Below are positions 13,288 through 32,000 of a stretch of 32,000 nucleotides of DNA, piece by piece. Origin of the DNA: Amycolatopsis orientalis DSM 40040 = KCTC 9412 (GTDB lineage Bacteria > Actinomycetota > Actinomycetes > Mycobacteriales > Pseudonocardiaceae); assembly GCF_000478275.1 (NCBI RefSeq), contig NZ_ASJB01000031.1:85850-117849 (forward strand). The letters are read 5' to 3'. A model generated the notes under the pieces. That model saw only the letters and a list, made by a program, of their open reading frames with translations. It was not told the DNA's origin and made no database searches. Within the stretch, counting starts at the first letter, position 1. Every line of letters starts with the position of its first letter. A program made the position numbers and the translations under genes.

Positions 13288-14139
13288 ATGACACAGCTAC
13301 CGATGTTCGGTCAGCCACCGGACACCCCGACCGCCAAACCGGTAGGTGATCAGGCGGTAACGCTACAGGTCCTGGTCACCGTGAAGGCGGCACCCAACCC
13401 TTCCGAGAAGTACGGCGAAACAGTCTGTGTAGCCGGACTAAGTCTCGACCCGAACCGTCAAGGCTGGATCCGCCTCTACCCGATCAACTTTCGCGAACTC
13501 GGCCCCGACGCGAGTTTCGCGAAGTACGACGTGGTGTCGGTCGAGGCGGTACCGGCCAGGCAGGACAGCAGGCAGGAGAGCTGGCGACCGCGCATGCCAA
13601 CCCTGAAGGTAGGGAAACACCTGACCAAATGGTCGCATCGCCGCCCGTGGCTCGATCCGGCGATCAGCAGCCAGACGACCATGTGTCGCCTCATCGGCGC
13701 CACCATGAACACGCAGTCGTTGGCCCTCATCCGCCCGAAAAGGATCACTGCGCTACGGATTGTTCAGCATCAGGGCTGGTCGAAGGCGCAGCAAGCCAAG
13801 ATCGACACCTACGTCGGCCAGCTCGATCTTTTCGGCAACGAAGACCGGACGCCGCTGCATGCGCCACGGTTCGCCGGCACCTACCACTACGAGTGCGAAG
13901 AGTCCGACTGCAACGGCCACAAGCAGGGATTCATCGACTGGGAGTTCGTCGCGTTCCAGCTCCTACGTCTCCGCGGCATGAACGACAATGAGGCCGCACA
14001 ACGGCTCGAGCAACGGTTTCTGCACGAAGTCTGCAGCCCTGATCGCGACATCGCCTTCTACGTCGGCAACGTCGCGGCGCATCCCCGGACATTCAGCGTC
14101 CTCGGCGTCTACTGGCCACCGCGATCAATTAAGGGGTAG
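13288..14139 (+). CDS. hypothetical protein (283 aa), Cys/His cluster near C-terminus (YHYECEESDCNGHKQG)
   Basis: GGGGAGG Shine-Dalgarno sequence 5 nt upstream of the ATG. The composition is protein-like. It diverges from gajA across a 680-bp gap and is convergent with the DUF488 gene, overlapping it by 15 nt. Confidence 0.7.
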   Translation: MTQLPMFGQPPDTPTAKPVGDQAVTLQVLVTVKAAPNPSEKYGETVCVAGLSLDPNRQGWIRLYPINFRELGPDASFAKYDVVSVEAVPARQDSRQESWRPRMPTLKVGKHLTKWSHRRPWLDPAISSQTTMCRLIGATMNTQSLALIRPKRITALRIVQHQGWSKAQQAKIDTYVGQLDLFGNEDRTPLHAPRFAGTYHYECEESDCNGHKQGFIDWEFVAFQLLRLRGMNDNEAAQRLEQRFLHEVCSPDRDIAFYVGNVAAHPRTFSVLGVYWPPRSIKG

Positions 14140-17162: not shown

Positions 17163-19448
17163 CTACCTGTCGACGTCGTCGAAAGGATCGCGCCCGGTTC
17201 GCAAGTTTGACGGACGAGGCGATGTGGTGGGCGACGCTATACGCTCATGGCTGCGCGACCTGGCCGGTCCGCTCTCGGGATGGTCTTCAAGGAGACTTTC
17301 TTCAAGCGAGTGCGCATGAGCCTCCACACCGTCTAGAGCGTTCAGCGCAGTAGGATCGTCAGCGAATTCCTTACGGAGATCAGCAACGGCCTCGACCAAC
17401 GGATCAACGTAAGATTCAGGGGAACCCCAGTCGATGCCCGGGTAGTTGAAGGTATCCCATCCGTTGACCAGATCGTCCGCGCCGTCCTCCAGCAAGGCAG
17501 TGCGAACGACTTGGCGGATTGATAGGCGTTCCGACTCGGTTAGAATCTCTACAACGTTCCGCACACTGCACCACGCGGTATCCGGTCCTTCAATGGCGAG
17601 CTCGGTAACGTGCTCAACGAACGCCAACCGGGCCGCTTCGGGGAGCACGCCCTGAGAGTGCAGGACATTCAGGAGAAGCACGGCCGGGGTGAAGTTGCTC
17701 AGGTACATACCGGGGTGGGTCAAGGGCTCGGTGAGCTGCGGGCGATCGGCGAGGATAGCTCGGGCGAACTCTGCGGAGCAGCGACCGGACAGGAACGTGA
17801 GTACCTCCATGATCTTCTCCCGAGGGCACGCATCCAGCCTGCCGACCAGGTGTGAGTGAAGGCTCGGCGGGATGGCGACACCCGGTCGGTCAAGGTCGTC
17901 GATATTGACAGTGGCTTCGGTCAGGATTTGCTGCATCGGCGCACCTTGCAGCCAGATCACCAGCTTCTCTGGTTGCTGCGCCAGCAGTATGGCGTACGCG
18001 TCACCGACACTGGGGTGGCGGAACTCGTAGTGACCGCGTACTGCGTCGGTGTGCAGGAGCGTGCCGTTGAGGTTTCCGAGCGACGAGCGGACTTCGGCAG
18101 CCGTGGTACCGATATCGCCGATGAGCACCTCGTCACCGGACGTCGGCATCAGCGGGCATGACAGCCGCCCGCCATGCGCGAAGACGAGCGCGATGGCCGC
18201 TTCGTGCGAAGCGTCCAGCTTGTCGAGCAGATCCTGGAGATACTCCTTCGGATGGGCGATGAACAGCTTCAGGTCATCGGGTGAGGCGGGGTCGATTCCT
18301 TCGGTGAAGAACGGGTCTGCTAAGCGTCGCGCGGTTTCCGGAAGCAGGTCGACCTCGTCGCACAACGCGCGCAGGTGCGGTTTGGCCACCGTCCGGAACT
18401 CTGCGGGCTGTCGGCCGGCGCGGAGGTGGGCGTAGAGGATCTTCTCCTTTTCGAGGCGGGAGAACGTGGTTACGTCGATGGTCACGCGATCCTCGGCCAG
18501 AAACGGGAAGGCGGTCTCCTTCAGCAGTCGGCGGGCCGCTCGCCAGATGTAGTCCCGGCTCGTCAAGATCACCCTGCTTCGGTTCCGGACGATCGCCCGA
18601 ACGAGTGAGAGGGTCCGGTTCCACGGGTCCATCAGCGAGCGGTCGAGGTTCATCGCACCGAAGGCGTCGTCAGCCCACAGCAGCTGGGGCTCTTCAGGGT
18701 TCCAATGACGCATCTGCGCGGGATGGTCGATCTGTGCCACGCGCAGGCCCCATTGATCACTAGCTGCCGCCGCGATCGTTGCCGCAGTGACGGTCTTGCC
18801 CGCGCCGGGTTCGCCGAGCAGCAATACGAACCCGTGAGCGTCCAAGGCGTCGATCGCTGCGCGGTACCCGTCGGTGACGACGAACGTCGCGAGGTCGTCT
18901 TGCAGTGAGTCCAGGACCGCCCTGGTCTGGTCGTATATGCGATTGTCGAGGATCTGTCCTAGATCGCCCAGCCCGTAGACCCGGGGCACTAAAGCGCGAA
19001 GACGGGGGCTCTCGCGGATTGTCTGAGACAGCCATTCGGCGCCGAGGACGACCACGCGCCCGACGCCGCGATCGCGCAGCTGTTCCTTAACGTCCGCCGC
19101 CACTTTCCCGGTCACTTGGAAGTTGGTGAGCACAATGTAGCTGTCACACAGCCCGCGCTCGACCAGCCTCTCGACCTTGGACAACTCGTCGGCCAGATCG
19201 GAGAGCGCCAAGTGCGCGCCGGCCCTGCTCGTGTGCTTCATCTGGGCAACGACAGCCCCGTGGATTCCGCGCAGGTGTCCGGCTGGCACGGGCGTGGCCC
19301 GCCCGGCGAAGGCACCGTCTTGGCCGATGTCGTTGGTGTCGCTGTAGACCTCGAGCTCCTGCCCGAGAACTTCGCGCAGCACCACCTGCCCCATATCCTG
19401 AAAGGCGCGCCAGCCGAGCGTATGCAGCTGGAATCCGGTGATCGTCAA
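17163..19448 (-). CDS. Mrr-like (PD-(D/E)xK) restriction-endonuclease domain fused to a STAND-type P-loop NTPase with an alpha-helical C-terminal region (Avs-like candidate)
   Basis: - N-terminus: DIGQDGAF...VVAQMKH...YIVLTNFQVTG, the Mrr_cat pattern D-G-x-D-G / Q-x-K / T-N.
- Walker A: FVLLLGEPGAGKTVTA.
- Walker B: QLLWADDAFG.
- RVILTSRDYIW, a STAND 'TSR' strand.
- About 350 aa of helical C-terminus.
- TTG start with GGAGGA 9 nt upstream. Confidence 0.85.
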   Translation of the reverse strand: MTITGFQLHTLGWRAFQDMGQVVLREVLGQELEVYSDTNDIGQDGAFAGRATPVPAGHLRGIHGAVVAQMKHTSRAGAHLALSDLADELSKVERLVERGLCDSYIVLTNFQVTGKVAADVKEQLRDRGVGRVVVLGAEWLSQTIRESPRLRALVPRVYGLGDLGQILDNRIYDQTRAVLDSLQDDLATFVVTDGYRAAIDALDAHGFVLLLGEPGAGKTVTAATIAAAASDQWGLRVAQIDHPAQMRHWNPEEPQLLWADDAFGAMNLDRSLMDPWNRTLSLVRAIVRNRSRVILTSRDYIWRAARRLLKETAFPFLAEDRVTIDVTTFSRLEKEKILYAHLRAGRQPAEFRTVAKPHLRALCDEVDLLPETARRLADPFFTEGIDPASPDDLKLFIAHPKEYLQDLLDKLDASHEAAIALVFAHGGRLSCPLMPTSGDEVLIGDIGTTAAEVRSSLGNLNGTLLHTDAVRGHYEFRHPSVGDAYAILLAQQPEKLVIWLQGAPMQQILTEATVNIDDLDRPGVAIPPSLHSHLVGRLDACPREKIMEVLTFLSGRCSAEFARAILADRPQLTEPLTHPGMYLSNFTPAVLLLNVLHSQGVLPEAARLAFVEHVTELAIEGPDTAWCSVRNVVEILTESERLSIRQVVRTALLEDGADDLVNGWDTFNYPGIDWGSPESYVDPLVEAVADLRKEFADDPTALNALDGVEAHAHSLEESLLEDHPESGPARSRSHERIASPTTSPRPSNLRTGRDPFDDVDR

Positions 19449-22190: not shown

Positions 22191-22595
22191 CTAGACGTGT
22201 ACGGGACTGTCCACAAGGGACGCGAGAAGTTCGCGAACCCGACGGTCCATATCGTCCCGCAACGGCCGGATCCCGGTGACCCCTTCGGTTTCCGGATCGG
22301 GGACGACCCACTCGACGTAGCGCGTCCCCTCGGCGATCGGGTAGGTCTTGCACCCCATGGTGATCACGATGTCCGCCGCCGCGACGTCGGCGTGGGTGAC
22401 CTGACTCGGCACCTCCGCCGAAATGTCGACGCCCCATTCCGCCAAGGCTCCCGCCACCAGTGGATTGATCCGTTCCGCCGGGTCGCAGCCCGCCGACCGC
22501 ACGGTCACCCTGCCGAATCCGTGATGCTTCAGCAGGGCGGCCGCCATCTGCGACCGGCTCGCGTTGTGCACGCACACGAACAGGATTTGCGTCAT
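22191..22595 (-). CDS. arsC: arsenate reductase, low-molecular-weight phosphatase (LMWP) family
   Basis: ILFVCVHNASRSQMAA carries the CX5R(S) P-loop. VITMGC and the 134-aa length are typical of ArsC/LMWP proteins. Confidence 0.85.
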   Translation of the reverse strand: MTQILFVCVHNASRSQMAAALLKHHGFGRVTVRSAGCDPAERINPLVAGALAEWGVDISAEVPSQVTHADVAAADIVITMGCKTYPIAEGTRYVEWVVPDPETEGVTGIRPLRDDMDRRVRELLASLVDSPVHV

Positions 22596-22791
22596 CGTGC
22601 CGTCCCTCTTGTCGGTGTTGTGTACTCATACCGAGGTTACCCGTGAAAACGTCATCCATCCCGGGTGAGGAACAGAGTGGCAATCGAGGAGAACCTCACC
22701 ATTCCGTCCCACGCGCATCCACGGAGATGAGCTTGCTTTATAGGCGCTGCCACACTTTTCCGGTGCCCGGGAAAACAGGTGGGGGTTATCG

Positions 22792-24426
22792 ATGACCGAG
22801 GTCCGGCTCAGCGGCGCCGTGATGGCGCATCCCAGACGCAGGGAAGCGGCGGAGGAACTCGCGCGCCTCGACCCCGCCGGCGCGCTGCGCGTGGTGCTCG
22901 ACCCCGAGCCGGACGGGCCGCCGACGGCGTTGCGGACGGCGAGACTGGCGTGGAGCAGTGTTCCCGGCGACGCCACGCACTTCCTCGTGCTGCAGGACGA
23001 CGTCGAGCTCGCGGCCGGTTTCTTCGAGCACGCGAGGAAAGCGGCCGAACAGCTGCCTGACGACGCCATCGCCTTCTACGCCAACTGGAACTCCCGCAAT
23101 GGCGCGGCGGTGCGGATGGCCGCGGCGGCCGGTGCCGCGTGGGCGACCGCGGTCAACGAATACGCGCCGTGCGTCGCCATCATGCTGCCCGCGGCGGCCG
23201 CGCGTGGTTACGCGGCCTATTCCGACGCGCACTCGGAAGGCTGGCCGTGCGACGTGCTCATGTTCCGGTACCTGAAGGCCATCGGGGTGCCGATCCGCAT
23301 CGCCGTGCCCAACACCGTCCAGCATTCCGGCCTGCCCAGTGTGGCGGGCAATGACGCCCACGGACTCCGGCGTTCTTCGTGTTTCTCCGCTGTCGCGCCG
23401 TCCTTCGCCGGCGGCGCGATCGCCGAGCCCGAGGTGATCCCCTTCCACAAGCATGTCACGTCGGAATGCGCCGTGCGGGCAGGCGGCTACTGGGAGTATC
23501 TCGGAACAGAACGGCTCCTGCGGCGATCGGGGATTTCGCCGCAGGAGTGCAGAACCGAATTCGAGCGCGGCGAAGACCTTTCCGAGGGGGCTTGGCAGAC
23601 CTGGCTGACCGCGTTCGCCATGGGACTGTCCTCTGTGGACTCGCTCGGTGGCGACGCGCTCGATCTCGCCCTCGCGAGCATCGGCCCGGGCGGTCTCTGC
23701 GATCAGCACACCGCGTCCGAGATCGAGGCGATCACGGCTTCACACCACGAAGTCGCGATCAACGCCTTCGCCGCGGGACGTGCCCGGGCGGCCCTCCCCC
23801 GCCGTCCAGCCGCCCGGAGTGGTCTCCAGGTCGCGATCACCGGCCCCGGCGGCACGCTCACCGACCATCTGGCCGGGCTGCTGTCCGAATTCGGCCACGA
23901 GATCGTCGACGGCGAAAACCCGTCCGCCTCGACACGGCTCGTCCACCTCGGCGACGAGAACGATCCCGGCGACGTCTTCTGCGCCATCGTCGACACCGGT
24001 GCCCGTGAACACGTCCTGCGGTTCGCGACCCCGATCGGTCCGCACACCCCGGAGGATTCCTTGGTGGCGCGGTGGATCCGGCTCGCGTGGACGCGTAAGG
24101 CACTGCCGGTCGATCCCGATCGCGTCCACCAGTTCACCGACGTGCGAGACCTGGCGAGCGCGATCGACGCGGTGCTGACCGGCGGGCCGGTCTCGCCGGT
24201 GTACGACATCGCGACGGCCACGCTCACCGGGAACGAACTGGCGAAGATCGTGTGCGCCGCGGTTCGCGCGGTGCCGACGGAACAGGTCACCGAACCGTCG
24301 GAGACTCCCCTGCTGAAACTCGGGCTCGCCGCCGCGGAACTCGGCTGGACCGCCACCATCCCGGCGGACGAAGCCGTCCGGACCTTCGGGAAATGGCTGG
24401 CCTACGACACGGACTGGGACCGATGA
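22792..24426 (+). CDS. two-domain hypothetical protein: N-terminal GT-A-like nucleotide-sugar transferase region, C-terminal Rossmann-like (epimerase/dehydratase-like) region
   Basis: THFLVLQDDVEL is an acidic DxD-like motif after a beta-strand. LQVAITGPGGTLTDHLAGLL is a glycine-rich Rossmann-type turn. This is the first gene of the operon, and its TGA overlaps the next ATG (ATGA at 24423-24426). Both domain calls are tentative. Confidence 0.55.
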   Translation: MTEVRLSGAVMAHPRRREAAEELARLDPAGALRVVLDPEPDGPPTALRTARLAWSSVPGDATHFLVLQDDVELAAGFFEHARKAAEQLPDDAIAFYANWNSRNGAAVRMAAAAGAAWATAVNEYAPCVAIMLPAAAARGYAAYSDAHSEGWPCDVLMFRYLKAIGVPIRIAVPNTVQHSGLPSVAGNDAHGLRRSSCFSAVAPSFAGGAIAEPEVIPFHKHVTSECAVRAGGYWEYLGTERLLRRSGISPQECRTEFERGEDLSEGAWQTWLTAFAMGLSSVDSLGGDALDLALASIGPGGLCDQHTASEIEAITASHHEVAINAFAAGRARAALPRRPAARSGLQVAITGPGGTLTDHLAGLLSEFGHEIVDGENPSASTRLVHLGDENDPGDVFCAIVDTGAREHVLRFATPIGPHTPEDSLVARWIRLAWTRKALPVDPDRVHQFTDVRDLASAIDAVLTGGPVSPVYDIATATLTGNELAKIVCAAVRAVPTEQVTEPSETPLLKLGLAAAELGWTATIPADEAVRTFGKWLAYDTDWDR

Positions 24427-25403
24427 GGATCCTCGTCGCCGGTCCGGTCCCGGCGGCCAGCGACTACGGGAACGGCGTCACCGCGCGCCGCTGGGCGAGT
24501 CTGCTCGGGGGCCTCGGCCACGAGGTCCGGGTGGTCCAGGATTACGACGGCGGCACCTACGACCTGCTCATCGCCCTGCACGCCCGCAAGAGCGAGGCCG
24601 CGATCCGGGCCTTCCGCGCCGCCTGCCCTGCCGCCCCGATCGTGATCGCGCTGACCGGCACCGATCTCTATCCGGACCTGGTCAGCGGCGGGGTCGACCT
24701 GACCCTGCTCGAAGCCGCGGCCCGCGTCGTCGTTCTGCAGCCGCAAGGGGTTCTGCAGGTGCCGGAGGCGTTGCGGAGCCGGACCAGGGTGATCACCCAG
24801 TCCATGCCGCCGATCTCCGGCGAGGCGCCCGCTGGGGACCGGTTCGAAATCGCGTTCCTCGCGCACGCCAGGCCGGTCAAGGATCCGCTGCTGCTGAGCG
24901 AGGCGGTGCGGCTGCTGCCGCCGTCGTCCCGGATCACCGTGACCCACGTCGGCGGTGTCCGCGAGGACGACATCGGCGACCGGCTGCGTGCCGAGTCCGC
25001 CGGGAACCCGCGCTATTCGTGGCTCGGCGCGTCGCCGCGCCCCGAAGCGCTCGCCGTCCTCGCCCGCAGCCGTCTGCTGGTGCTCACGTCCCGGCACGAG
25101 GGCGGGGCGAACGTCGTCACCGAGGCGCTCGCCGCCGGCGTCCCGATCGTCTCCACCCGCATCCCGGGTTCGGTCGGGCTGCTCGGCGAGGACTATGCGG
25201 GCTATTTCCCCGTCGGTGACGCGGCCGCGCTGGCCGCCGTGCTCGACGCCGCCGAGCACGACCGCGACGGGCTCTACACGCAGTTGCGGCGGCAATGCGC
25301 CGCCCGCCGCGCTTCGGCGGATCCGGAGCGCGAAACCGAAGCCTGGAAGCGACTGCTCGCCGAAGCGGTCCCCGAGAAGGCCGGATACGAAGGAGTTCGA
25401 TGA
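24423..25403 (+). CDS. GT-B fold glycosyltransferase (group-1/GT4-like); N-terminal pattern reminiscent of the TIGR04348/SenB-type family
   Basis: - MRILVAGPVP..GNGVTARRWASLLGGLGHEV...ALHARKS...ALTGTDLY.
- C-terminal SRHEGGANVVTEALAAGVPIVSTRIPG, the E-x7-E-like GT1 motif.
- The ORF is open from 24252, but ATG 24423 gives an ATGA overlap with the upstream stop. Confidence 0.75.
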   Translation: MRILVAGPVPAASDYGNGVTARRWASLLGGLGHEVRVVQDYDGGTYDLLIALHARKSEAAIRAFRAACPAAPIVIALTGTDLYPDLVSGGVDLTLLEAAARVVVLQPQGVLQVPEALRSRTRVITQSMPPISGEAPAGDRFEIAFLAHARPVKDPLLLSEAVRLLPPSSRITVTHVGGVREDDIGDRLRAESAGNPRYSWLGASPRPEALAVLARSRLLVLTSRHEGGANVVTEALAAGVPIVSTRIPGSVGLLGEDYAGYFPVGDAAALAAVLDAAEHDRDGLYTQLRRQCAARRASADPERETEAWKRLLAEAVPEKAGYEGVR

Positions 25404-26752
25404 AACTCAGGAAGAGCGTTCCGAAGGTCGGCGGCGGCGGGGTGCACCGGGAGTTCACCGCCGAGCAGACCTACGCGCGGATCGAACCGCATCTGCGGCG
25501 CGCCGGGGTCACCCGGGTCGCGGAGATCACCTGGCTCGACCGGGTCGGCATCCCGGTCTACAACGCCATCGCGCCCCGCTCCAACGACATCATCTCGGTG
25601 TACAACGGCAAGGGCCTGACGAACATGGACGCCAGGACGTCCGCGGCGATGGAGGCGATCGAGCGGTTCTCCGCCGCGCTTCCGGTGCGGCCGCAGGTCA
25701 TCGCGTCCTACGAGGAGCTGGTCGCCGAAGGCCGCACGGTGCTGGACCCTCGCGAGAACAACGCGGAGCTTTCCGCGCACTACCGCGACGATCTCCCGAT
25801 CTCGTGGGTCGAGGCGTACGACCTGATCAACGAAGAGTCCATCCTGATCCCGCAGGCCTCCGCCGTCTACGGGCTGAAGTTCCACGAACCTCCCTGCTAC
25901 AAGGTGCTTTCCACCAACGGGCTGGCGTCGGGCAACAGTCTCGAAGAGGCCATCTGCCACGCGCTCACCGAACTCATCGAACGCGATTCGATGACCAACG
26001 CCGAACTCGTGAGCAGCCAGCTCGCGCAGGTGCTGGAGAAGGGCATCTTCGTCGATCCGCAGCCCGAGCACATCACTTCCCACCTGCGGGAACTGCATCC
26101 GCACGTCGACCTGGACTCGCTGCCACCGCTGGCGAAATCCCTCGTGGACAAGTTCCACGACGCCGGGCTGAAGATGCGGATCGTGCACATCACCTCGGAT
26201 CTGGAGATCCCGAGTTTCCTCGCCGCCACCTCCGAAGACCTCGGCCCGACGACGTCGCAGGGCCACGGCGGGTTCGGCACGCATCCCGACGCGAACGTCG
26301 CGCTCATCCGCGCCATCACCGAATGCGCGCAGGGCCGCGCGGTGGACATCCAGGCGATGCGCGAGGACATCCGGCTCCCGACCGAGAACGTGTCCAAGTA
26401 CCAGAACCACGTCCAGCGGTCGGCGACCATCGACAAGGGCGCGTGGGCCTGGCAGCCGATGCGCAAACAGGTCGCGTTCGCCGACATCCCGTCGTGGACC
26501 ACCGACGACGTGATGACCGACATCAAGCTCATCCTGGACCGGATCCGCGCCGCCGGTATCGAACGCGCGCTCGCCGTCGACCTCTCCCCGCCGGGGATCC
26601 CGGTCAGCGTGGTCCGGGTGATCGTGCCGCGGCTCGAATCGTGGGCCGTCGACCACTGCAAGATCGGCCCGCGAGGGGCGACGGTCTGGAACAACGCGCT
26701 GGTCGAGTTGTCGGCCCGTAAGCGCGCCGCCGAACTTTCCAAGCCCGCCTAG
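25400..26752 (+). CDS. YcaO-domain protein (ATP-dependent backbone amide activation)
   Basis: GIPVYNAI, SVYNGKG, STNGLASGNSLEEAICHALTELIERD and GGFGTHPDANVALIRAITECAQ are YcaO hallmarks. ATG 25400 overlaps the upstream TGA (ATGA). Confidence 0.9.
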   Translation: MKLRKSVPKVGGGGVHREFTAEQTYARIEPHLRRAGVTRVAEITWLDRVGIPVYNAIAPRSNDIISVYNGKGLTNMDARTSAAMEAIERFSAALPVRPQVIASYEELVAEGRTVLDPRENNAELSAHYRDDLPISWVEAYDLINEESILIPQASAVYGLKFHEPPCYKVLSTNGLASGNSLEEAICHALTELIERDSMTNAELVSSQLAQVLEKGIFVDPQPEHITSHLRELHPHVDLDSLPPLAKSLVDKFHDAGLKMRIVHITSDLEIPSFLAATSEDLGPTTSQGHGGFGTHPDANVALIRAITECAQGRAVDIQAMREDIRLPTENVSKYQNHVQRSATIDKGAWAWQPMRKQVAFADIPSWTTDDVMTDIKLILDRIRAAGIERALAVDLSPPGIPVSVVRVIVPRLESWAVDHCKIGPRGATVWNNALVELSARKRAAELSKPA

Positions 26753-26762
26753 GAGATCTCTC

Positions 26763-27458
26763 ATGCGCGCAGTGGTTTTCATCGGCCCGAGCATCGACCG
26801 GGAAGCGGCGTCCGCCGAACTCGACGTCGAGTTCCTGCCGCCGGTCAAACGCGGCGACCTCGCCGAACTGCTGGCCCGGCCGGAGCCGCCGGAGGCCATC
26901 GGCATCGTGGACGGCCGGTTCCTGCAGAGCCTGTGCATCTCGCCGAAGGAGGTGCTCGAAGCGATGGACCGCGGCGTCACGATGTTCGGTTCGTCGAGTA
27001 TGGGTGCCTTGCGGGCGGCGGAATGCTCGCCGTTCGGCATGGTCGGCATCGGCAAGATCTACGAGGAGTACTTCTCCGGGCGGATCGACGCCGACGACGA
27101 GGTCGCCGTCACCTACGACGAAGAGAACCTGTCGGCGCTGTCCGAACCGATGGTCAACATGCGGTTCGCCATCGCCGCCGGGATCGAGCAGGGCGCCTTC
27201 GCCCCGGAAACGGGTGAGCGGTTCCTCGAGATCGCGAAGGAGCTGTACTTCCCGCAGCGCGTCAACCGGACCGTGCTCATGTTGCTGCGCAAGGAGATCG
27301 GCGAGGACGAGTACGTCAGGATCGCCGCATTCTTCGCCGGCGGGGCACCCGACACGAAACGCGAGGACGCGCTGCTCCTGCTCGCGGCGATGCGGGAGTT
27401 CCTCGACCCGGCAGGAAAACCGCAGATCAAATCCGTCGAACACCGAGGTGCGCTGTGA
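26763..27458 (+). CDS. TfuA-like protein (YcaO partner for thioamidation)
   Basis: VVFIGPS, PPVKRGDL, IGIVDGRF, SPKEVLEAMDRGVTMFGSSSMGALRAAE and GMVGIGKIY match the TfuA pattern. AGGAG Shine-Dalgarno sequence. It starts 10 nt after the YcaO stop. Confidence 0.9.
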   Translation: MRAVVFIGPSIDREAASAELDVEFLPPVKRGDLAELLARPEPPEAIGIVDGRFLQSLCISPKEVLEAMDRGVTMFGSSSMGALRAAECSPFGMVGIGKIYEEYFSGRIDADDEVAVTYDEENLSALSEPMVNMRFAIAAGIEQGAFAPETGERFLEIAKELYFPQRVNRTVLMLLRKEIGEDEYVRIAAFFAGGAPDTKREDALLLLAAMREFLDPAGKPQIKSVEHRGAL

Positions 27459-27607
27459 CCGACCCCATCGACCCGTCGCTCGCCCCGCTGGCCGGGTTCA
27501 CCCCCGAGCAGCTGGAGCGGTTCCTGGAGGCCGTGCGGACGTCGTCCGACGGCGTCCAGGGCACGCTGGAATCCCTGACCATGACGATCATGACCTCCAT
27601 CGAATGA
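27455..27607 (+). CDS. unannotated 50-aa ORF: candidate RiPP precursor peptide MTDPIDPSLAPLAGFTPEQLERFLEAVRTSSDGVQGTLESLTMTIMTSIE
   Basis: - GTG 27455 overlaps the TfuA TGA (GTGA).
- Its own TGA overlaps the MFS ATG (ATGA at 27604-27607).
- A GAGG sequence lies 5-9 nt upstream.
- 48 of 50 codons end in G/C.
- It is not in the supplied track because it is under 60 aa. Confidence 0.65.
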   Translation: MTDPIDPSLAPLAGFTPEQLERFLEAVRTSSDGVQGTLESLTMTIMTSIE

Positions 27608-28983
27608 CCGCCGCGCCGCTGACGGAGGAGGACGTCATCCCGGCGAAGGCGGGCATCTTCTCCAAGGAGTACCGGGCGAGCACCATCGGCTTCGCGTCGG
27701 TGATGTTCCTCGAAGGGTTCGCCGCGCTGGCGCTGGTCACCACCCTGCCGGTGGCGGTCGGCCAGCTCGACGGGCTCACCGTCTACGCGCTGGCGCTGGG
27801 CGGGTTCGTCACGATGAGCCTGTTCGGCAGCGTGCTGGCGGGCGAGATCGCCGACAAACGCGGTCCCCGGCCGCTGCTGGTGCTCGGGCTGGGCCTGTTC
27901 CTGGCCGGGCTGCTGCTCGCCGGGACCGCGACGACGGTGTGGCAGCTGATCGCCGGACGCTGCGTGCAGGGTTTCGCGAGCAGCGTCGTGGTCGTCGGCC
28001 TCAACGTCACCATCGCGCAGTCGTATCCGTCGAAGCTGCGGCCGAAGGCGCTCTCGCTGATGAGCACCTGCTGGATCGTGCCGTCGATGATCGGCCCGGC
28101 GATCGCCGGGACCGTCACCGAACTGCTGTCGTGGCGCTGGGTGTTCTTCGGCCTCGCCATCCTGGTCTCGGTCGCCGCGCTGATCCCGCTCGGTTTCCTG
28201 CGGCGGCTCAGCCCGGTGGCCGACGCGGAACGGTCGACCCCGCCGGGGCTCGTCCGGGCCGCGGCCATCGTCGCGGTGGCCGCCGGGATCCTGCACTTCG
28301 GCGCCTCGGGGCTGGATCCGGTGCACCTCCTGTTCGGGCTCGCCGGCGTGATCGCGCTGGTGATCAGCGTGCCCCGGCTGCTGCCTGCCGGGACACTGCG
28401 CGCGGTCAGGGGCATTCCCGCGGCGATCCTGTTGCGCGGGCTGGCCTCCGGTATCTATTTCGCGCTGGAGTCCTACATCCCGCTGATGCTGATCAACCAG
28501 CGGCAGATCTCGGTCACCGCCGCCGGGATCTCGTTCACCGGGGCCACGCTGCTGTGGGCGGGCGCGGCGTGGCTGCAGGGCCATCCCTGGTCCGAGGTGC
28601 CCCGGCACAGACTGGTGCTGCTCGGGTCCGCGGTGATCGCCGGGTCCAGCCTGATCGCGATCTTCGGCGTCCTGGGGTTCGCGCCGCCGATGACCGCCAG
28701 CGTCGCGCTGATCGTCGCCGGGTTCGGCATGGGGCTCGTGCTGCCGAGCCTCACCGTGCTCGCGTTCGACCACTGCCCGCCGGAGGACCAGGGCCGCTAC
28801 TCGGCCGCCATGCAGGTCTCCCAGGGGCTCGGCAGCGTCGTGATGATCGGCGCGGCGGGCGCGCTCTTCAACGTCGGTACCGCCGTCGGCTATTCCGGCG
28901 GCCTCGTCTACGGGGTGGTTTTCACCTTCGTGGCACTCATCGCGCTCCCGGCGTGCCTGTTGGCGCTGAGGACCCGCATCTAG
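27604..28983 (+). CDS. MFS transporter (about 12 TM, probable exporter)
   Basis: Multiple hydrophobic helices. LAGEIADKRGPRPLLVLG resembles the MFS loop 2-3 motif G-x-x-x-D-[RK]-x-G-R-[RK]. The in-frame ORF is open from 27004, but protein-like sequence begins at M 27604. Confidence 0.85.
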   Translation: MTAAPLTEEDVIPAKAGIFSKEYRASTIGFASVMFLEGFAALALVTTLPVAVGQLDGLTVYALALGGFVTMSLFGSVLAGEIADKRGPRPLLVLGLGLFLAGLLLAGTATTVWQLIAGRCVQGFASSVVVVGLNVTIAQSYPSKLRPKALSLMSTCWIVPSMIGPAIAGTVTELLSWRWVFFGLAILVSVAALIPLGFLRRLSPVADAERSTPPGLVRAAAIVAVAAGILHFGASGLDPVHLLFGLAGVIALVISVPRLLPAGTLRAVRGIPAAILLRGLASGIYFALESYIPLMLINQRQISVTAAGISFTGATLLWAGAAWLQGHPWSEVPRHRLVLLGSAVIAGSSLIAIFGVLGFAPPMTASVALIVAGFGMGLVLPSLTVLAFDHCPPEDQGRYSAAMQVSQGLGSVVMIGAAGALFNVGTAVGYSGGLVYGVVFTFVALIALPACLLALRTRI

Positions 28984-28992
28984 GAGGCACTC

Positions 28993-30252
28993 GTGCAGAA
29001 GGATCTCGCGGTCATCGGCCTGGGGTACGTGGGGCTGCCGTTGGCCAGGGAAGCCATCCGTGCCGGGCTCACCGTCACGGGGCTGGACCAGAACGAGCGC
29101 GTCGTCGCCGCGCTCAACACCGGACTGTCGCATGTGGACGACATCCCGGACGCCGACGTGGCGACGATGGTGGAGGAGGGATTCACCGCGACCACCGACG
29201 AAGGCGTGCTGGCCTCGGCCGACGTCATCGTCATCTGCGTGCCGACGCCGCTGGCGTCCGACGGCGGACCGGATCTCGGCGCGGTGAAGGCCGCGGCCGA
29301 GGCGGTCAGCCGTCACCTGAAGCCGGGAACGCTGGTGGTACTGGAATCGACCACCTATCCCGGGACCACCGAAGAGGTCGTCGCCCCGATACTGGAGTGG
29401 TCGGGGCTGCGCGCGGGGAAGGACTTCTGCCTGGCGTTCTCGCCGGAGCGGGTCGACCCCGGCAACGCCGTCTACGGCATCCGCAACACCCCGAAGGTCG
29501 TCGGCGGCCTGACGTCGTCGTGCGCCGCCGCGGTGGCGGGATTCTACGGCCGGTTCGTCGACGACGTCGTCCCCGCCAAGGGAACGCGCGAGGCCGAAAT
29601 GGCGAAGCTGCTGGAGAACACCTACCGGCACGTGAACATCGCGCTGGTGAACGAGATGGCGGTGTTCTGCCACGAACTCGGCATCGACCTGTGGGACGTC
29701 ATCTCGTGCGCCGCCACGAAACCCTTCGGTTTCCAGTCGTTCCGGCCGGGTCCGGGTGTCGGCGGGCACTGCATCCCGATCGACCCGAACTACCTGTCGT
29801 ACAAGGTGCGCACGCTCGGCTACCCGTTCCGGTTCGTCGAACTGGCGCAGGAGATCAACTCGCGCATGCCGCGTTACGTCGTCGAACGGGCGCAGGCCAT
29901 GCTCAACGAATCCGGCCGGGCGCTGCGCGGTGCTCGGGTGCTCCTGCTCGGCGTGACCTACAAACCCGACATCGCCGACCAGCGGGAGTCACCCGCGCAA
30001 CCGGTCGCGGCGCGGTTGCGGGCGCTGGGCGCCGACGTCGTCTACCACGATCCGCACGTCACGGACTGGCGCGTGCACGGCGACGCGATCCCGCGCGTGA
30101 CCGACCTGGCCGGGGAACTCGCGTCGGCGGATCTGACGATCCTGCTGCAGAAGCACACCGCCTACGACGTCGACGTCCTCGCCGCCGGCGTGCGCCTGCT
30201 GCTGGACACCAGGGGTGCCGTTCCCCACGACGCTCACGTCGTCGCCCTCTGA
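28993..30252 (+). CDS. nucleotide-sugar dehydrogenase (UDP-glucose/GDP-mannose dehydrogenase family)
   Basis: LAVIGLGYVGLPLA is the N-terminal NAD-binding GxGxxG motif. GPGVGGHCIPIDP carries the catalytic Cys. VTYKPDIADQRESPA is also present. The GTG start has AGGAGG 6 nt upstream. Confidence 0.9.
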   Translation: MQKDLAVIGLGYVGLPLAREAIRAGLTVTGLDQNERVVAALNTGLSHVDDIPDADVATMVEEGFTATTDEGVLASADVIVICVPTPLASDGGPDLGAVKAAAEAVSRHLKPGTLVVLESTTYPGTTEEVVAPILEWSGLRAGKDFCLAFSPERVDPGNAVYGIRNTPKVVGGLTSSCAAAVAGFYGRFVDDVVPAKGTREAEMAKLLENTYRHVNIALVNEMAVFCHELGIDLWDVISCAATKPFGFQSFRPGPGVGGHCIPIDPNYLSYKVRTLGYPFRFVELAQEINSRMPRYVVERAQAMLNESGRALRGARVLLLGVTYKPDIADQRESPAQPVAARLRALGADVVYHDPHVTDWRVHGDAIPRVTDLAGELASADLTILLQKHTAYDVDVLAAGVRLLLDTRGAVPHDAHVVAL

Positions 30253-30258
30253 CACCCT

Positions 30259-30311
30259 CGCGTTCAGTCCTCTGGATGCGGTTTACCCCCGCATTTAGAG
30301 GACTGAACGCG
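30259..30311. terminator. bidirectional terminator hairpin between convergent genes
   Basis: A 15-bp perfect stem pairs cgcgttcagtcctct (30259-30273) with agaggactgaacgcg (30297-30311). There is an inner atgcgg/ccgcat stem. It sits between the stops at 30252 and 30320. Confidence 0.7.
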
Positions 30312-30319
30312 TATCGGGT

Positions 30320-32000
30320 CTAGAGCACCAGCCGGACGCGGTAGGCCCTGAGCCAGTCGTTGAGCTGCAGGGTGGTCTCCAGCGCGGGCCGGGTCAGCCG
30401 TCCCGCGGGGAACTCGTCGTTCAGCAGCGGCGAGAGTGGTTCGTCCTTCGCGAGGATCAGCTTCCGCAGCCGGTCACGCAGGATCCGGTCGTAGGAATCG
30501 TCCTCAATGGACGGATACGGGGTCTTGGCACGGTCCAGCACCTCGGCGGGGAGCAGCTCCTTGCCGACCGCGCGCAACAGGCTCTTCTCCCGGCCGTCGA
30601 AGTTCTTCATCGACCACGGGACGTTGAAGGTGTACTCGACCAGCCGATGGTCGGTGAACGGCACCCGCACCTCCAGCCCGGCGGCCATGCTCATCCGGTC
30701 CTTGCGGTCGAACAGCACCTGCGCGTGCCGGGTCAGCCCGAGGTAGGTGACCTCGCGCATCCGGGCCTCCAGCGGATCCTCACCGGCCACAGTGGACAGT
30801 TCGGCGACGGCGGAGTCATGGCTGTCGCGTTCGTACTCACGCAGCCCGAGTTTCGTCATCAGGTCCGGCGCGAACAGCAGGTCGAGGCCTTCGTGGCGGC
30901 TTCGTCCCGAATGGACCCACGGGAAGGTGCCCGACCAGACCGCCTCGGGATTCCGGTACCAGCGGTAACCACCGAAGACCTCATCGCCGCATTCTCCGGA
31001 CAACGCCACCGTCGACCGCTCCCGGACCAGCCGGAACAGCTCGTGCAGCGACGCGTGTTCGTCACCCTTGGCGATCGGCAGGTCGTACGCGGTCAGCACG
31101 GCCGCTTTCACCGGCGGCGCGAGAAGATCCACGGTGGTGTGCAGGATCTCCTCGTACCGCGCGCCCACGTGGTCCGCGACCAGGCGCGCGTGCACATGGT
31201 CGAGGTTGTCGCCCGGCTGGTCGGTCACCTTGACCGAATAGGACCGGACGTCGGAGGTCCTGGCCGCGAGCGCGGTCAGCGTGCTGGAGTCGAGTCCGCC
31301 CGACAGCAGTGTGCACAGTGGCACGTCCGCGACCAGCTGGCGGGTGACGGTGTCCTCCAGCAGCTCCCGGACCCTGGCGACCGTGGTGGCGAGGTCGTCG
31401 GGATGCTCCCGGACCTCCAGCGACCAGTATTTCCGAAGGTCGAGCCCATCGCGGCGGACTCGCAGCGTATGCCCGGGCGGCAGCTCGCGCATCCCGCGGA
31501 AGACGGCGTGCCCGGGGTTCTTCGCCACCGAGAGCAGATCCCGCAGGCCGTCCGCGTCGAGGACGCGTTCGGCGAGCGGGTTGGCGAGGATCGCCTTCGG
31601 CTCCGAACCGAAGAGGACACCGTCGGCGGTCGGGTAGTAGAAGAGCGGCTTGACGCCCATGCGGTCGCGGACCAGCAGCAGCTCGTCGCCGTCCCAGATC
31701 GCGAACGCGTACATCCCGTTGAGCCGGTCGACGAACGCGTCGCCCCATTCGAGGTAGGCGCGCAGGACGACCTCGGTGTCACTGCGGGTGTCGAACCGAT
31801 GGCCGCGGGCGGTGAGCTCCGCGCGCAGCTCACGGAAGTTGTAGACCTCACCGCTGTAGGTGAGCACGGCCGTACCCGCCGTCATCGGCTGGCGGCCGCC
31901 GTCGAGGTCGATGATGGACAGCCGCCGGTGCCCCAGCGCCGCGTGCGGGGAGAGCCAGATCCCGCCGGCGTCGGGCCCCCGCTTCGCCATGGTGTCCGTC
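30320..32000 (-). CDS. asnB: asparagine synthase (glutamine-hydrolysing), N-terminus beyond the window edge
   Basis: RGPDAGGIW..LGHRRLSIIDL..GRQPM and YNFRELRAEL are Ntn amidotransferase motifs. LLSGGLDSS is the PP-loop. The frame is still open at position 32000. Confidence 0.85.
   Translation of the reverse strand, partial: TDTMAKRGPDAGGIWLSPHAALGHRRLSIIDLDGGRQPMTAGTAVLTYSGEVYNFRELRAELTARGHRFDTRSDTEVVLRAYLEWGDAFVDRLNGMYAFAIWDGDELLLVRDRMGVKPLFYYPTADGVLFGSEPKAILANPLAERVLDADGLRDLLSVAKNPGHAVFRGMRELPPGHTLRVRRDGLDLRKYWSLEVREHPDDLATTVARVRELLEDTVTRQLVADVPLCTLLSGGLDSSTLTALAARTSDVRSYSVKVTDQPGDNLDHVHARLVADHVGARYEEILHTTVDLLAPPVKAAVLTAYDLPIAKGDEHASLHELFRLVRERSTVALSGECGDEVFGGYRWYRNPEAVWSGTFPWVHSGRSRHEGLDLLFAPDLMTKLGLREYERDSHDSAVAELSTVAGEDPLEARMREVTYLGLTRHAQVLFDRKDRMSMAAGLEVRVPFTDHRLVEYTFNVPWSMKNFDGREKSLLRAVGKELLPAEVLDRAKTPYPSIEDDSYDRILRDRLRKLILAKDEPLSPLLNDEFPAGRLTRPALETTLQLNDWLRAYRVRLVL

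What the first reader, a model, noticed from the sequence alone, without database searches (positions are those of the whole stretch)
27455..27607. Hidden 50-codon ORF filling the TfuA-MFS gap exactly: candidate thioamide-RiPP precursor
**Seen in sequence**
- The 146-nt gap between TfuA and the MFS gene holds one ORF. Its GTG start overlaps the TfuA stop (GTGA, 27455-27458), and its stop overlaps the MFS start (ATGA, 27604-27607).
- 48 of 50 codons end in G/C, which is the coding signature of this genome. A GAGG sequence precedes the start.
- The peptide is MTDPIDPSLAPLAGFTPEQLERFLEAVRTSSDGVQGTLESLTMTIMTSIE.
- It is acidic (8 D/E against 2 R), has no Cys, and has a helical leader-like FTPEQLERFLEAV segment.
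- Its C-terminus TLESLTMTIMTSIE is rich in Thr, Ser, Met and Ile.

**Established knowledge**
- YcaO paired with TfuA, and lacking an E1-like/Ocin-ThiF cyclodehydratase partner, installs backbone thioamides. Known cases are the thioamitides, thiovarsolins, thiopeptin and archaeal McrA.
- Precursors of such pathways are short ORFs that gene callers often miss.

**Inference**
- This peptide is the substrate. I do not recognise it as a thioviridamide-, thiovarsolin- or thiopeptide-type core.
Basis: partly seen in the sequence, partly recalled or inferred. Interest (0 to 1): 0.88.

Follow-up and report, generated by a model that had tools for sequence, protein, structure and literature searches.

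The report
Known thioamide-RiPP precursor, SenB-linked operon
The 50-codon gene is real and almost certainly encodes the precursor peptide of a YcaO-TfuA pathway, but this exact peptide was already published as a predicted precursor in 2019; the new point is that its operon always carries a genuine selenosugar-synthase (SenB) gene.

Summary
The ORF at 27455-27607 is as described. It is a real gene. In 13 Amycolatopsis orthologues the variable columns fall 10/2/26 by codon position, and the last 14 residues have pS 0.30 and pN 0.001. The same peptide follows tfuA in Actinacidiphila, Actinoplanes, Streptomyces and in metagenomes.

It is not hidden or new. RefSeq annotates it as WP_161780844.1. 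The identical sequence, from A. orientalis DSM 40040, is in the RiPPER paper (Santos-Aberturas 2019). There it sits in the thioviridamide-like Network 5 as an "uncharacterized family". Its leader is thioamitide-type (hhalign 96.9%). The predicted core is TLESLTMTIMTSIE, which lacks the His-Cys end, and the thioamitide tailoring genes are absent. No characterised product was found.

One thing is new as far as the searchable literature shows. The glycosyltransferase upstream of ycaO is, by sequence, a genuine SenB selenosugar synthase:
- It scores above the TIGR04348 cut-off.
- All 14 SenB functional positions carry the same residues as in SenA-linked SenBs.
- The YcaO-linked copies form one clade, sister to SenA-linked SenBs.

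SenB, YcaO, TfuA and the peptide are the invariant core of the locus. Best reading: a thioamidated RiPP precursor. A selenium- or thiosugar-dependent variant is not excluded.

The parts
22191..22595 (-). LMW phosphotyrosine-phosphatase / ArsC-family gene (CX5R motif), divergent from the operon. Its membership of the system is uncertain.
   Evidence: Pfam PF01451, E 2e-18. It is conserved at this position in all 12 Amycolatopsis loci. The non-Amycolatopsis loci instead carry a Y_phosphatase3 gene at the 3' end.
22792..24426 (+). 544-aa fusion protein. The N-terminal half is a GT-A glycosyltransferase domain (residues ~1-240, QDD motif). The C-terminal half is a truncated, probably degenerate NDP-sugar SDR (epimerase/dehydratase) domain.
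   Evidence: There is no Pfam hit. The AF2 model has pLDDT 88. The C-terminal half matches RmlB and UDP-xylose synthase folds. The N-terminal model (pLDDT 89.6) matches GT-A enzymes: mimivirus R655, POMGnT1, GnT-I and COLGALT1. The Amycolatopsis copies lack ~100 aa of the SDR domain. The gene is absent in L014. Its stop overlaps the next start as ATGA.
24423..25403 (+). SenB-type GT-B glycosyltransferase (selenosugar synthase family TIGR04348), RefSeq WP_037305771.1.
   Evidence: NCBIfam TIGR04348 scores 342 bits against a cut-off of 300. The full-length match to the V. paradoxus SenB structures has E 3e-57. All SenB pocket and catalytic residues are kept. The YcaO-linked copies form one clade, sister to SenA-linked SenBs. 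RefSeq names it SenB.
25400..26752 (+). YcaO (TfuA-associated type). The likely true start is ATG 25400, overlapping the SenB stop as ATGA.
   Evidence: Pfam PF02624, E 9e-71. The best NCBIfam match is the McrA-glycine thioamidation YcaO. It is 65% identical to the YcaO of a classical thioamitide cluster (L013).
26763..27458 (+). TfuA
   Evidence: Pfam PF07812, E 3e-40. NCBIfam NF033432, 214 bits. It is 61% identical to the thioamitide-cluster TfuA in L013.
27445..27448 (+). Shine-Dalgarno-like GAGG, 6 nt upstream of the GTG start and inside the TfuA codons for Arg-Gly.
   Evidence: The R-G codons are kept in all Amycolatopsis TfuA C-termini. L012 has GGAGAG before its GTG.
27455..27562 (+). 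Precursor peptide, predicted leader (residues 1-36), with the helix motif P17-EQLERFLEAV-27 at 27503-27535.
   Evidence: The leader aligns to thioamitide leaders up to the QG|S/T boundary. P17, L20, F23 and L24 are invariant or nearly so across the family.
27563..27607 (+). Predicted core TLESLTMTIMTSIE (residues 37-50) plus the stop codon. The stop overlaps the MFS start.
   Evidence: The core is nearly invariant in all family members: T[LM][ED]SLTxT[IV]MTSIE. In this stretch pS is 0.30 and pN is 0.001.
27604..28983 (+). MFS transporter, translationally coupled to the peptide gene and the probable exporter. It is an accessory part.
   Evidence: Pfam MFS_1, E 9e-43. It is present after the peptide in four genera but is missing in 6 of 12 Amycolatopsis loci.
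28993..30252 (+). NDP-sugar 6-dehydrogenase (UDP-Glc / UDP-ManNAc dehydrogenase family). Accessory part.
   Evidence: Pfam and NCBIfam TIGR03026, 430 bits. It co-occurs with the MFS and AsnB genes.
30320..31990 (-). AsnB-type glutamine amidotransferase. Accessory part. It is convergent here and on the same strand in other genera.
   Evidence: Pfam and NCBIfam. It is linked to the cluster in L012, L015, L019 and L028, and to the peptide-free cassette in L023 and L024.

Best explanation
**What it is.** The ORF is the precursor-peptide gene of a small, conserved and still uncharacterised actinobacterial RiPP family. The family branches off the thioamitide (thioviridamide-like) lineage.

**How it most likely works.**
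1. *Shown:* the gene sits in an operon with overlapping stop and start codons: GT-A/SDR fusion, ATGA, SenB-type GT, ATGA, YcaO, TfuA, GTGA, peptide, ATGA, MFS.
2. *Inferred from homology to thioamitide precursors:* residues 1-36 are a leader, and its PEQLERFLEAV helix docks the peptide on YcaO/TfuA. Residues 37-50 (TLESLTMTIMTSIE) are the core.
3. *Inferred from precedent for TfuA-partnered YcaOs (thioamitides, thiovarsolins, McrA):* YcaO uses ATP to phosphorylate backbone amide oxygens in the core. TfuA supplies the chalcogen nucleophile. The result is one or more thioamides, and this is the first, gatekeeping step.
4. *Inferred, weakly:* the product is then decorated or otherwise processed with the help of the SenB-type enzyme. 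Where present, the GT-A fusion protein and the NDP-sugar dehydrogenase / AsnB module also take part. A host protease removes the leader, and the MFS pump exports the product.
For: **It is coding.**
- The GC3 frame switches at the ORF borders.
- Variable columns fall 10/2/26 by codon position and pN/pS is 0.13. The core has pS 0.30 and pN 0.001.
- An SD sequence and start/stop coupling are present.
- RefSeq now calls the gene.

**It belongs with YcaO-TfuA.**
- It sits directly after tfuA in 12 of 12 Amycolatopsis loci, including the six where the MFS gene is replaced.
- The same holds in Actinacidiphila, Actinoplanes, Streptomyces and metagenomes.

**It looks like a precursor.**
- hhalign against thioamitide precursors gives 96.9% probability and E 1.3e-10, aligned through the QG|S/T leader-core junction.
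- There is a weak NF033415 "thioviridamide family RiPP" hit.
- RiPPER placed it in the thioviridamide-like Network 5.
- The thiovarsolin leader shares the motif.

**The enzymes are of the thioamide type.**
- YcaO and TfuA are 65% and 61% identical to those of a classical thioamitide cluster (L013).
- No cyclodehydratase partner or azoline dehydrogenase is present.
- In thioamitides, YcaO/TfuA thioamidation is the first step, and deleting the cluster's predicted leader protease did not stop production (PMC8153245).
Against: - There are no expression or product data of any kind. No paper in the searchable library reports a compound.
- The cluster encodes no protease and no thioamitide tailoring genes.
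- The core is nearly invariant across four genera. That is unusual for antibiotic RiPPs and would also fit a scaffold or cofactor peptide.
- A SenB enzyme indistinguishable from selenosugar synthases sits immediately upstream of ycaO in every family locus examined. This hints that the chemistry is not plain sulfide-based thioamidation.
- Half of the Amycolatopsis loci lack the MFS exporter.
Confidence: 0.75

Rival explanations
1. Chalcogen-sugar variant, which refines rather than replaces the best explanation. The peptide is still the YcaO-TfuA substrate. The SenB enzyme makes a 1-seleno-sugar (or 1-thio-sugar) from a UDP-sugar and selenophosphate. That sugar is either the chalcogen donor for the YcaO-activated amide, giving a selenoamide or thioamide, or it becomes attached to the peptide as an Se/S-glycosyl imidate or glycoside.
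For: - The GT scores above the curated SenB cut-off.
- All 14 functional positions carry the same residues in the YcaO-linked and the SenA-linked groups, including K61 and N235. These cover the selenophosphate pocket (N20, H58, R/K61, T83, T85, R155), the catalytic K158 and the sugar and UDP contacts. Only one alignment column separates the two groups.
- The 23 YcaO-linked copies form one clade, sister to SenA-linked SenBs at 55-64% identity.
- SenB, YcaO, TfuA and the peptide are the only genes present in every locus, and they are translationally coupled.
- Only 827 of 2353 TIGR04348 proteins lie in senABC clusters, so other uses of the family are expected.
Against: - No selD/senC gene was found in the window or in any of the flanks searched with a SelD query, up to 20 kb per locus. 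The gene tables of L015-L021 show none either.
- Thioamitide YcaO/TfuA pairs, 61-65% identical to these, work without SenB.
- No selenoamide natural product and no YcaO that uses a sugar-borne chalcogen is known (one search found nothing).
- Selenium involvement is inferred from homology alone.
Confidence: 0.25
2. Scaffold or small-molecule reading. The peptide is translated and modified, but it is not itself the exported product. Either a small fragment, such as a few modified C-terminal residues, is released as in the thiovarsolins or pearlin-type pathways. Or the peptide acts as a recycled carrier in making a sugar-derived small molecule that the MFS pump exports.
For: - The core is nearly invariant across genera while the leader drifts.
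- MFS pumps usually carry small molecules.
- The GT-A fusion, MFS, NDP-sugar dehydrogenase and AsnB genes form a self-standing cassette with a PhyH gene and no peptide in Streptantibioticus, Actinokineospora and Streptomyces. The peptide module looks like an insertion into that small-molecule sugar pathway.
- No leader protease is encoded.
Against: - The PEARL and pearlin hallmarks, a LanB-like aminoacyl-tRNA-dependent ligase and an MNIO enzyme, are absent.
- Six Amycolatopsis species keep SenB, YcaO, TfuA and the peptide without the MFS, dehydrogenase and AsnB module.
- There is no direct evidence.
Confidence: 0.12
3. The YcaO performs azoline or amidine chemistry on the Ser/Thr-rich core rather than thioamidation.
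For: The core has six Ser/Thr residues. Standalone YcaOs are known that make amidines or azolines (established knowledge; PMC8442711 is listed).
Against: - A TfuA gene is adjacent, and all characterised TfuA-partnered YcaOs thioamidate.
- The best NCBIfam match is the thioamidation YcaO.
- The closest relatives are thioamitide enzymes.
- No dehydrogenase or E1-like partner is present.
Confidence: 0.05
4. Chance ORF or antisense shadow in GC-rich DNA, not a gene.
For: Short ORFs with high GC3 are common here: 8 of 20 in 22-32 kb. A 780-aa spurious ORF on the minus strand covers the region.
Against: - The substitution pattern is 10/2/26 in the sense frame. It would be 2/10/26 in the antisense frame, which is not typical of coding sequence.
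- The protein is conserved at 50% identity across genera, with an invariant C-terminus and the same ATGA coupling.
- Its profile matches known precursors.
Confidence: 0.02

Closest known systems
Thioamitides (thioviridamide, thioalbamide, thioholgamides, thiostreptamide S4), with precursors TvaA/TsaA and YcaO-TfuA pairs TvaH/I and TsaH/I
   Same: - The C-terminal half of the leader is homologous (LAG-x-S/T-PEELQxFLE ... QG|S/T) and the junction position is the same.
- YcaO and TfuA are 61-65% identical.
- RiPPER put them in the same similarity network.
   Different: - The core has no His-Cys terminus, so no AviCys macrocycle or dimethyl-histidinium is possible.
- The N-terminal half of the thioamitide leader is missing (50 aa against 75-87 aa).
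- No phosphotransferase/lyase, LanD-like decarboxylase, methyltransferase, hydroxylase or C1A protease genes are present.
- The peptide gene lies after tfuA, not at the head of the cluster.
- The peptide scores 19.6 bits against the NF033415 cut-off of 40.
RiPPER Network 5 "non-thioviridamide-like" peptides (Santos-Aberturas et al. 2019, NAR 47:4624, Fig. 3 blue nodes)
   Same: This is the same thing. The identical 50-aa sequence from A. orientalis DSM 40040 = KCTC 9412 is listed there (TfuA WP_037305773, 3 bp from tfuA, Prodigal score 24.4). Three relatives from A. alba, A. regifaucium and A. orientalis are listed with it.
   Different: - The paper gives only the prediction.
- Its text names no genes beyond YcaO, TfuA and the precursor as shared.
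- It reports no product.
- Its text does not mention glycosyltransferases.
Thiovarsolins (VarA with YcaO-TfuA, Streptomyces varsoviensis)
   Same: Both are TfuA-YcaO RiPPs. The leaders share the NPEQLQGFLEE motif, and both clusters contain an MFS gene.
   Different: VarA has repeated APR cores and gives tripeptide-sized products. It has heme-oxygenase and amidinotransferase tailoring. There is no core similarity.
Selenoneine and ovoselenol pathways (SenC/SelD, SenB, and SenA or OvsA)
   Same: The GT here is a SenB by curated score, by catalytic residues and by phylogeny.
   Different: - The neighbours are YcaO, TfuA and a peptide gene instead of an EgtB-like NHISS enzyme and SelD.
- No selD is found in any flank searched.
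- The only known consumers of selenosugar are SenA and OvsA.
Archaeal McrA thioglycine installation (YcaO-TfuA)
   Same: The best NCBIfam models for both enzymes are the McrA-type ones.
   Different: Both scores are below the equivalog cut-offs. The substrate here is a dedicated 50-aa peptide, not a large enzyme subunit.

Membership tests
TfuA-associated YcaO (thioamidating) RiPP gene cluster | Adjacent ycaO and tfuA genes | tested here: met
   PF02624 E 9e-71 and PF07812 E 3e-40. The genes are 10 nt apart.
TfuA-associated YcaO (thioamidating) RiPP gene cluster | No E1-like/Ocin-ThiF partner and no azoline dehydrogenase | tested here: met
   Pfam and NCBIfam scans of every gene from 22191 to 31990 show none.
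TfuA-associated YcaO (thioamidating) RiPP gene cluster | Short co-directional precursor gene conserved with the enzyme pair | tested here: met
   It lies directly after tfuA in every family locus with enough sequence to judge, under purifying selection.
TfuA-associated YcaO (thioamidating) RiPP gene cluster | Backbone thioamide in the product | not testable with these tools
   This needs LC-MS/MS of the modified peptide.
Thioamitides (thioviridamide family) | Homologous leader peptide | tested here: met
   hhalign 96.9% probability, E 1.3e-10, over 42 columns. RiPPER Network 5.
Thioamitides (thioviridamide family) | Precursor reaches the curated NF033415 score | tested here: not met
   19.6 bits against a cut-off of 40.
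Thioamitides (thioviridamide family) | Core ending in His-Cys, needed for AviCys and modified His | tested here: not met
   The core is TLESLTMTIMTSIE. No family member has Cys or His in its core.
Thioamitides (thioviridamide family) | Tailoring set: phosphotransferase plus lyase, LanD-like decarboxylase, His methyltransferase and hydroxylase | tested here: not met
   None of these domains occurs in 22191-31990.
SenB selenosugar synthase (TIGR04348) | Score above the curated equivalog cut-off, full length | tested here: met
   342 bits against 300, covering residues 3-313 of the protein and 1-309 of the 310-position model. RefSeq names it SenB.
SenB selenosugar synthase (TIGR04348) | Selenophosphate pocket (N20, H58, R/K61, T83, T85, R155), catalytic K158 and the EGGAxV motif | tested here: met
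   All are conserved in the 23 YcaO-linked copies and are identical to those of 27 SenA-linked SenBs.
SenB selenosugar synthase (TIGR04348) | Co-localised senA (EgtB-like) and senC (selD) | tested here: not met
   Neither is found in the window or in the flanks of any YcaO-linked locus. Both are found next to the sister-clade SenBs.
SenB selenosugar synthase (TIGR04348) | Makes a 1-seleno-sugar from a UDP-sugar and selenophosphate | not testable with these tools
   This needs an enzyme assay.
Thiovarsolins | Repeated APR/GPR core units | tested here: not met
   The peptide has a single non-repetitive core. Only the leader motif is shared.

The most novel reading that the evidence does not exclude
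The operon encodes the first dedicated selenium-dependent (or 1-thiosugar-dependent) RiPP pathway. A genuine SenB makes a chalcogen-sugar. That sugar either feeds the YcaO/TfuA reaction, giving a backbone selenoamide, or is joined to the thioamidated core. This would be a third use of selenosugars, after selenoneine and ovoselenol, and the first in a peptide.
Probability: 0.22. Interest if true: 0.9.

Novelty: already known. Interest (0 to 1): 0.5.

Why it matters
As stated, the finding repeats a 2019 bioinformatic prediction, so the ORF itself adds nothing new.

The family still has no known product, and the locus has a feature that the searchable literature does not discuss. An enzyme indistinguishable from selenosugar synthase SenB is invariably and translationally coupled to YcaO, TfuA and this precursor.

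If SenB's product takes part, this would extend dedicated selenium metabolism from two histidine-derived small molecules to ribosomal peptides. It would also reveal a new chalcogen-delivery route for YcaO enzymes, whose physiological sulfur source in bacteria is still unclear. If SenB's product takes no part, the locus shows that the RefSeq name "selenoneine biosynthesis SenB" is applied too widely.

Either way, the minimal four-gene unit is small enough to express and test directly with and without selenite.

Tried and rejected
- **Pfam on the peptide:** no hit. The weak YbjN hit (PF10722) listed in the RiPPER table was not reproduced with current Pfam.
- **Full-text search for the core string TIMTSIE:** no paper.
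- **Supplements of the 2021 global TfuA survey (PMC8120280):** they do not hold the peptide.
- **Papers linking SenB or selenosugar with YcaO or TfuA:** none found. Papers on selenoamide RiPPs: none found.
- **selD/senA/senC:** none in the window or in any flank of a YcaO-linked locus.
- **Terminator and promoter scan after the peptide gene in a locus where it ends the operon (L002):** nothing found, which is uninformative in GC-rich DNA.
- **Exhaustive profile search of 1.84 billion representatives:** it added only one further member (P0145) plus unrelated repetitive proteins. The family is small. Thioamitide precursors are too short to reach library-wide significance.
- **GC3 as stand-alone evidence:** rejected, because antisense shadow ORFs reach the same values.
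- **An upstream start for the MFS gene inside the gap:** rejected.
- **A housekeeping role for AsnB:** considered and left open. Its linkage in four genera argues for a role in the accessory sugar module.
Full report
**1. The observation**

The window has an ORF at 27455-27607 on the + strand with a GTG start, 50 codons and a TGA stop. The GTG overlaps the TfuA stop as GTGA, and the stop overlaps the MFS start as ATGA. GAGG lies 6 nt upstream. Forty-eight of 50 codons end in G/C, and GC1/2/3 are 0.62/0.48/0.96. The peptide is MTDPIDPSLAPLAGFTPEQLERFLEAVRTSSDGVQGTLESLTMTIMTSIE. The gap is 145 nt, not 146.

An ORF of this size with this GC3 is not remarkable in itself. The 12 kb around it hold 79 ORFs of at least 40 aa. 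Eight of the 20 short ORFs in 22-32 kb have GC3 of at least 0.9, because antisense shadows of real genes share third positions. What is specific is that the high-GC3 phase jumps from the TfuA frame to this frame to the MFS frame exactly at its borders. The upstream extension of the MFS frame also reads as Arg-rich nonsense.

**2. It is a real, selected gene**

A TfuA-based scan of one genome per species gave 14 loci. All 12 Amycolatopsis loci carry the ORF directly after tfuA. That includes six in which the MFS gene is replaced by a glyoxalase-like gene.

- Across the window and the 12 orthologues, the variable alignment columns fall 10/2/26 by codon position. Pooled pN/pS is 0.13.
- The last 14 codons have pS 0.30 and pN 0.001.
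- In the antisense frame the same pattern would be 2/10/26, which does not look like coding sequence.

Actinacidiphila bryophytorum, in a different order, has MPTGTALNDLTVSDPEELQEFLEQVSAESGGGIVATMESLTTTIMTSIE after tfuA. It is preceded by GGAGAG and again ends in ATGA with the MFS start.

Protein searches found 14 clusters in Amycolatopsis, Actinacidiphila, Actinoplanes, Streptomyces and soil metagenomes. An exhaustive profile search of 1.84 billion representatives added only one more. The C-terminus T[LM][ED]SLTxT[IV]MTSIE is almost invariant. The PE[EQ]LxxFLE helix is conserved, and the rest drifts.

**3. It is neither hidden nor new**

- RefSeq annotates the peptide as WP_161780844.1, "hypothetical protein", in Amycolatopsis orientalis.
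- The identical sequence is in Supplementary Dataset 4 of the RiPPER paper (PMC6511847). It is listed for A. orientalis DSM 40040 = KCTC 9412, TfuA WP_037305773, 3 bp from tfuA, and marked there as not then annotated.
- In that dataset it is a member of Network 5, the thioviridamide-like network.
[quoted passage not shown] Their BGCs share only YcaO, TfuA and the precursor with thioviridamide-like BGCs. Fig. 3 calls them "a related but uncharacterized family".
- I found no later paper that characterises a product.

**4. Relation to known precursors**

A profile of the family aligns to a profile of six thioamitide precursors with 96.9% probability and E 1.3e-10. The alignment covers 42 columns, from the LAGxS/TPEELQxFLE helix through the QG|S/T junction. 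NCBIfam's thioviridamide-family model hits weakly, at 19.6 bits against a cut-off of 40. The thiovarsolin leader also carries NPEQLQGFLEE.

By homology, the leader is residues 1-36 and the core is T37-E50. The core has no Cys or His, so the thioamitide macrocycle and histidinium are impossible. No thioamitide tailoring domains occur between 22191 and 31990.

YcaO and TfuA are 65% and 61% identical to those of a classical thioamitide cluster found in the same scan (Microbispora, L013). That cluster's precursor ends ...IQGTFTGALVTPATHC. In thioamitides, YcaO/TfuA thioamidation is the first, gatekeeping step. The leader protease is not firmly assigned, and deleting the candidate was tolerated (PMC8153245). 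The lack of a protease gene here is therefore not a strong objection.

**5. The operon**

The order in the window is as follows:

| Position | Gene |
|---|---|
| 22191-22595 (-) | LMW-PTP/ArsC-like gene, divergent |
| 22792-24426 | 544-aa protein |
| 24423-25403 | GT4 (ATGA overlap with the previous gene) |
| 25400-26752 | YcaO (ATGA overlap; this is the likely true start) |
| 26763-27458 | TfuA |
| 27455-27607 | peptide (GTGA overlap) |
| 27604-28983 | MFS (ATGA overlap) |
| 28993-30252 | NDP-sugar dehydrogenase |
| 30320-31990 (-) | AsnB |

The 544-aa protein has no Pfam hit. AlphaFold models (pLDDT 88 and 89.6) show two domains:
- an N-terminal GT-A glycosyltransferase fold (mimivirus R655, POMGnT1, GnT-I, COLGALT1; E down to 2e-8);
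- a C-terminal extended-SDR NDP-sugar fold.

In Amycolatopsis the SDR domain lacks about 100 residues.

Most of the ~195 homologues of this fusion protein are not next to YcaO. In Streptantibioticus, Actinokineospora and Streptomyces olivaceoviridis the fusion protein sits in a cassette with PhyH, an MFS gene and an NDP-sugar dehydrogenase, plus AsnB in the last two, and no peptide gene. The fusion, MFS, dehydrogenase and AsnB genes therefore look like an independent sugar module, possibly making a uronamide. The peptide unit is combined with that module.

The module is dispensable:
- Six Amycolatopsis species lack the MFS, dehydrogenase and AsnB genes.
- One species (L014) also lacks the fusion protein.

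The genes present in every locus are the GT4, YcaO, TfuA and the peptide.

**6. The GT4 is a SenB**

- It scores 342 bits on TIGR04348, "selenoneine biosynthesis selenosugar synthase SenB", against a cut-off of 300. RefSeq names it so.
- It aligns full length to the Variovorax SenB crystal structures.
- The structure paper (PMC10891094) defines these residues: N20, T23 and E231 for the sugar; N20, H58, R61, T83, T85 and R155 for selenophosphate; K158 for Se-P cleavage; and the EGGAHV motif.
- All are kept in the copies from the window, Actinacidiphila, Actinoplanes, Streptomyces and a metagenome. The only changes are R61K in some copies and H235N in all.

A metagenome scan with these GTs returned 62 loci. 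Three are further YcaO-TfuA loci. About 28, at 55-64% identity, are bona fide sen loci. They have an EgtB-like SenA directly upstream and, in several, SelD nearby.

In a neighbour-joining tree the 23 YcaO-linked GTs are monophyletic and sister to those SenA-linked SenBs. The two groups are identical at all 14 functional positions, including K61 and N235. Only one alignment column separates them. By sequence, this enzyme cannot be told apart from a working selenosugar synthase.

- No selD or senA lies in the window or in any flank.
- Kayrouz et al. counted 2353 TIGR04348 proteins, of which only 827 are in senABC clusters.
- The only known selenosugar consumers are SenA and OvsA.
- No paper in the library mentions SenB together with YcaO or TfuA.

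**7. Mechanism**

*Shown:* the gene is real, it is conserved with YcaO and TfuA, it has a thioamitide-type leader, and it is translationally coupled to its neighbours.

*Inferred from precedent:* the leader helix recruits YcaO/TfuA. YcaO phosphorylates backbone amides in the core with ATP, and a chalcogen nucleophile converts them to thioamides.

*Inferred weakly:* glycosyl-type tailoring, removal of the leader by a host protease, and export by the MFS pump.

The invariant SenB raises a refinement that I rate at about one in four. A 1-seleno-sugar or 1-thio-sugar would be the chalcogen donor or a building block. A scaffold or small-fragment reading is also open, given the near-invariant core and the small-molecule character of the accessory module.

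**8. Verdict**

The product is unknown. The residual interest lies in the SenB-YcaO-TfuA-precursor unit, which can be tested directly with selenite feeding and a four-gene expression construct.

Noticed in passing
window 9125-12606 (-): A complete Gabija defence pair. GajA (AAA/OLD-TOPRIM, PADLOC PDLC00070, E 3e-169) lies at 10864-12606. GajB (UvrD helicase, PDLC00117, E 7e-159) lies at 9125-11014.
   Followed up: partly
window 1-21000: The 21 kb upstream of the cluster has lower G+C (0.53-0.65, against 0.68-0.72 in the cluster) and looks like a defence island. It holds an NB-ARC/TPR STAND protein (2010-4229), a PDC-M19B candidate (13288-14139), and an nSTAND3 / PDC-S73 NTPase (17163-19448). 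G+C dips to 0.527 at 16-17 kb.
   Followed up: partly
L022 7152-12866, L023 7213-14337, L024 7112-14515: A peptide-free cassette in Streptantibioticus, Actinokineospora and Streptomyces. It holds PhyH dioxygenase, the GT-A/SDR fusion protein, an MFS gene and an NDP-sugar dehydrogenase, plus AsnB in L023 and L024. It is a conserved sugar-related small-molecule module of unknown product that shares most of its genes with the finding's locus.
   Followed up: partly
L002, L003, L004, L009, L010, L014 (downstream of the peptide gene); L014 2957-3605: Gene content is patchy within Amycolatopsis. Six of 12 species lack the MFS, dehydrogenase and AsnB genes, and a glyoxalase-like gene follows the peptide instead. 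L014 also lacks the GT-A/SDR fusion, so its cluster is only SenB, YcaO, TfuA and the peptide.
   Followed up: yes
window 22191-22595 (-); L012 ~11381-12133; L015 14664-15416; L017 11758-12462; L019 14712-15428: A Cys-based phosphatase accompanies the cluster in both lineages, but the two are not homologous. Amycolatopsis has an LMW-PTP/ArsC-type gene upstream. The other genera have a Y_phosphatase3 gene downstream. This may be coincidence or functional replacement.
   Followed up: partly
window 24423-25403: RefSeq names this gene "selenoneine biosynthesis selenosugar synthase SenB", although its neighbours are YcaO, TfuA and a peptide gene and no senA or senC is nearby. The pathway part of the name is probably over-propagated, even if the enzyme activity is right.
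   Followed up: yes
L063-L087 (metagenome loci): A third TIGR04348 subgroup, 31-42% identical to the window's GT. It has E instead of V at SenB position 157 and L, I or H at position 235. In the two loci checked (L063, L069) an MFS gene lies directly upstream, and a SenA query gave no clear match in these loci (only 26% identity in four). Its function is unknown.
   Followed up: no
L026 ~3490-3800: In this metagenome contig the peptide reading frame runs on into the MFS gene (...GTLESLTVAALRQ...). The otherwise identical protein P0010 ends ...TLESLTVTVMTSIE. This is probably an assembly frameshift.
   Followed up: partly
protein cluster of P0001: The 90%-identity cluster of the 50-aa peptide contains a 399-aa JGI protein named 1-deoxy-D-xylulose-5-phosphate reductoisomerase (P0138). 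This is probably a clustering or gene-calling artefact.
   Followed up: no
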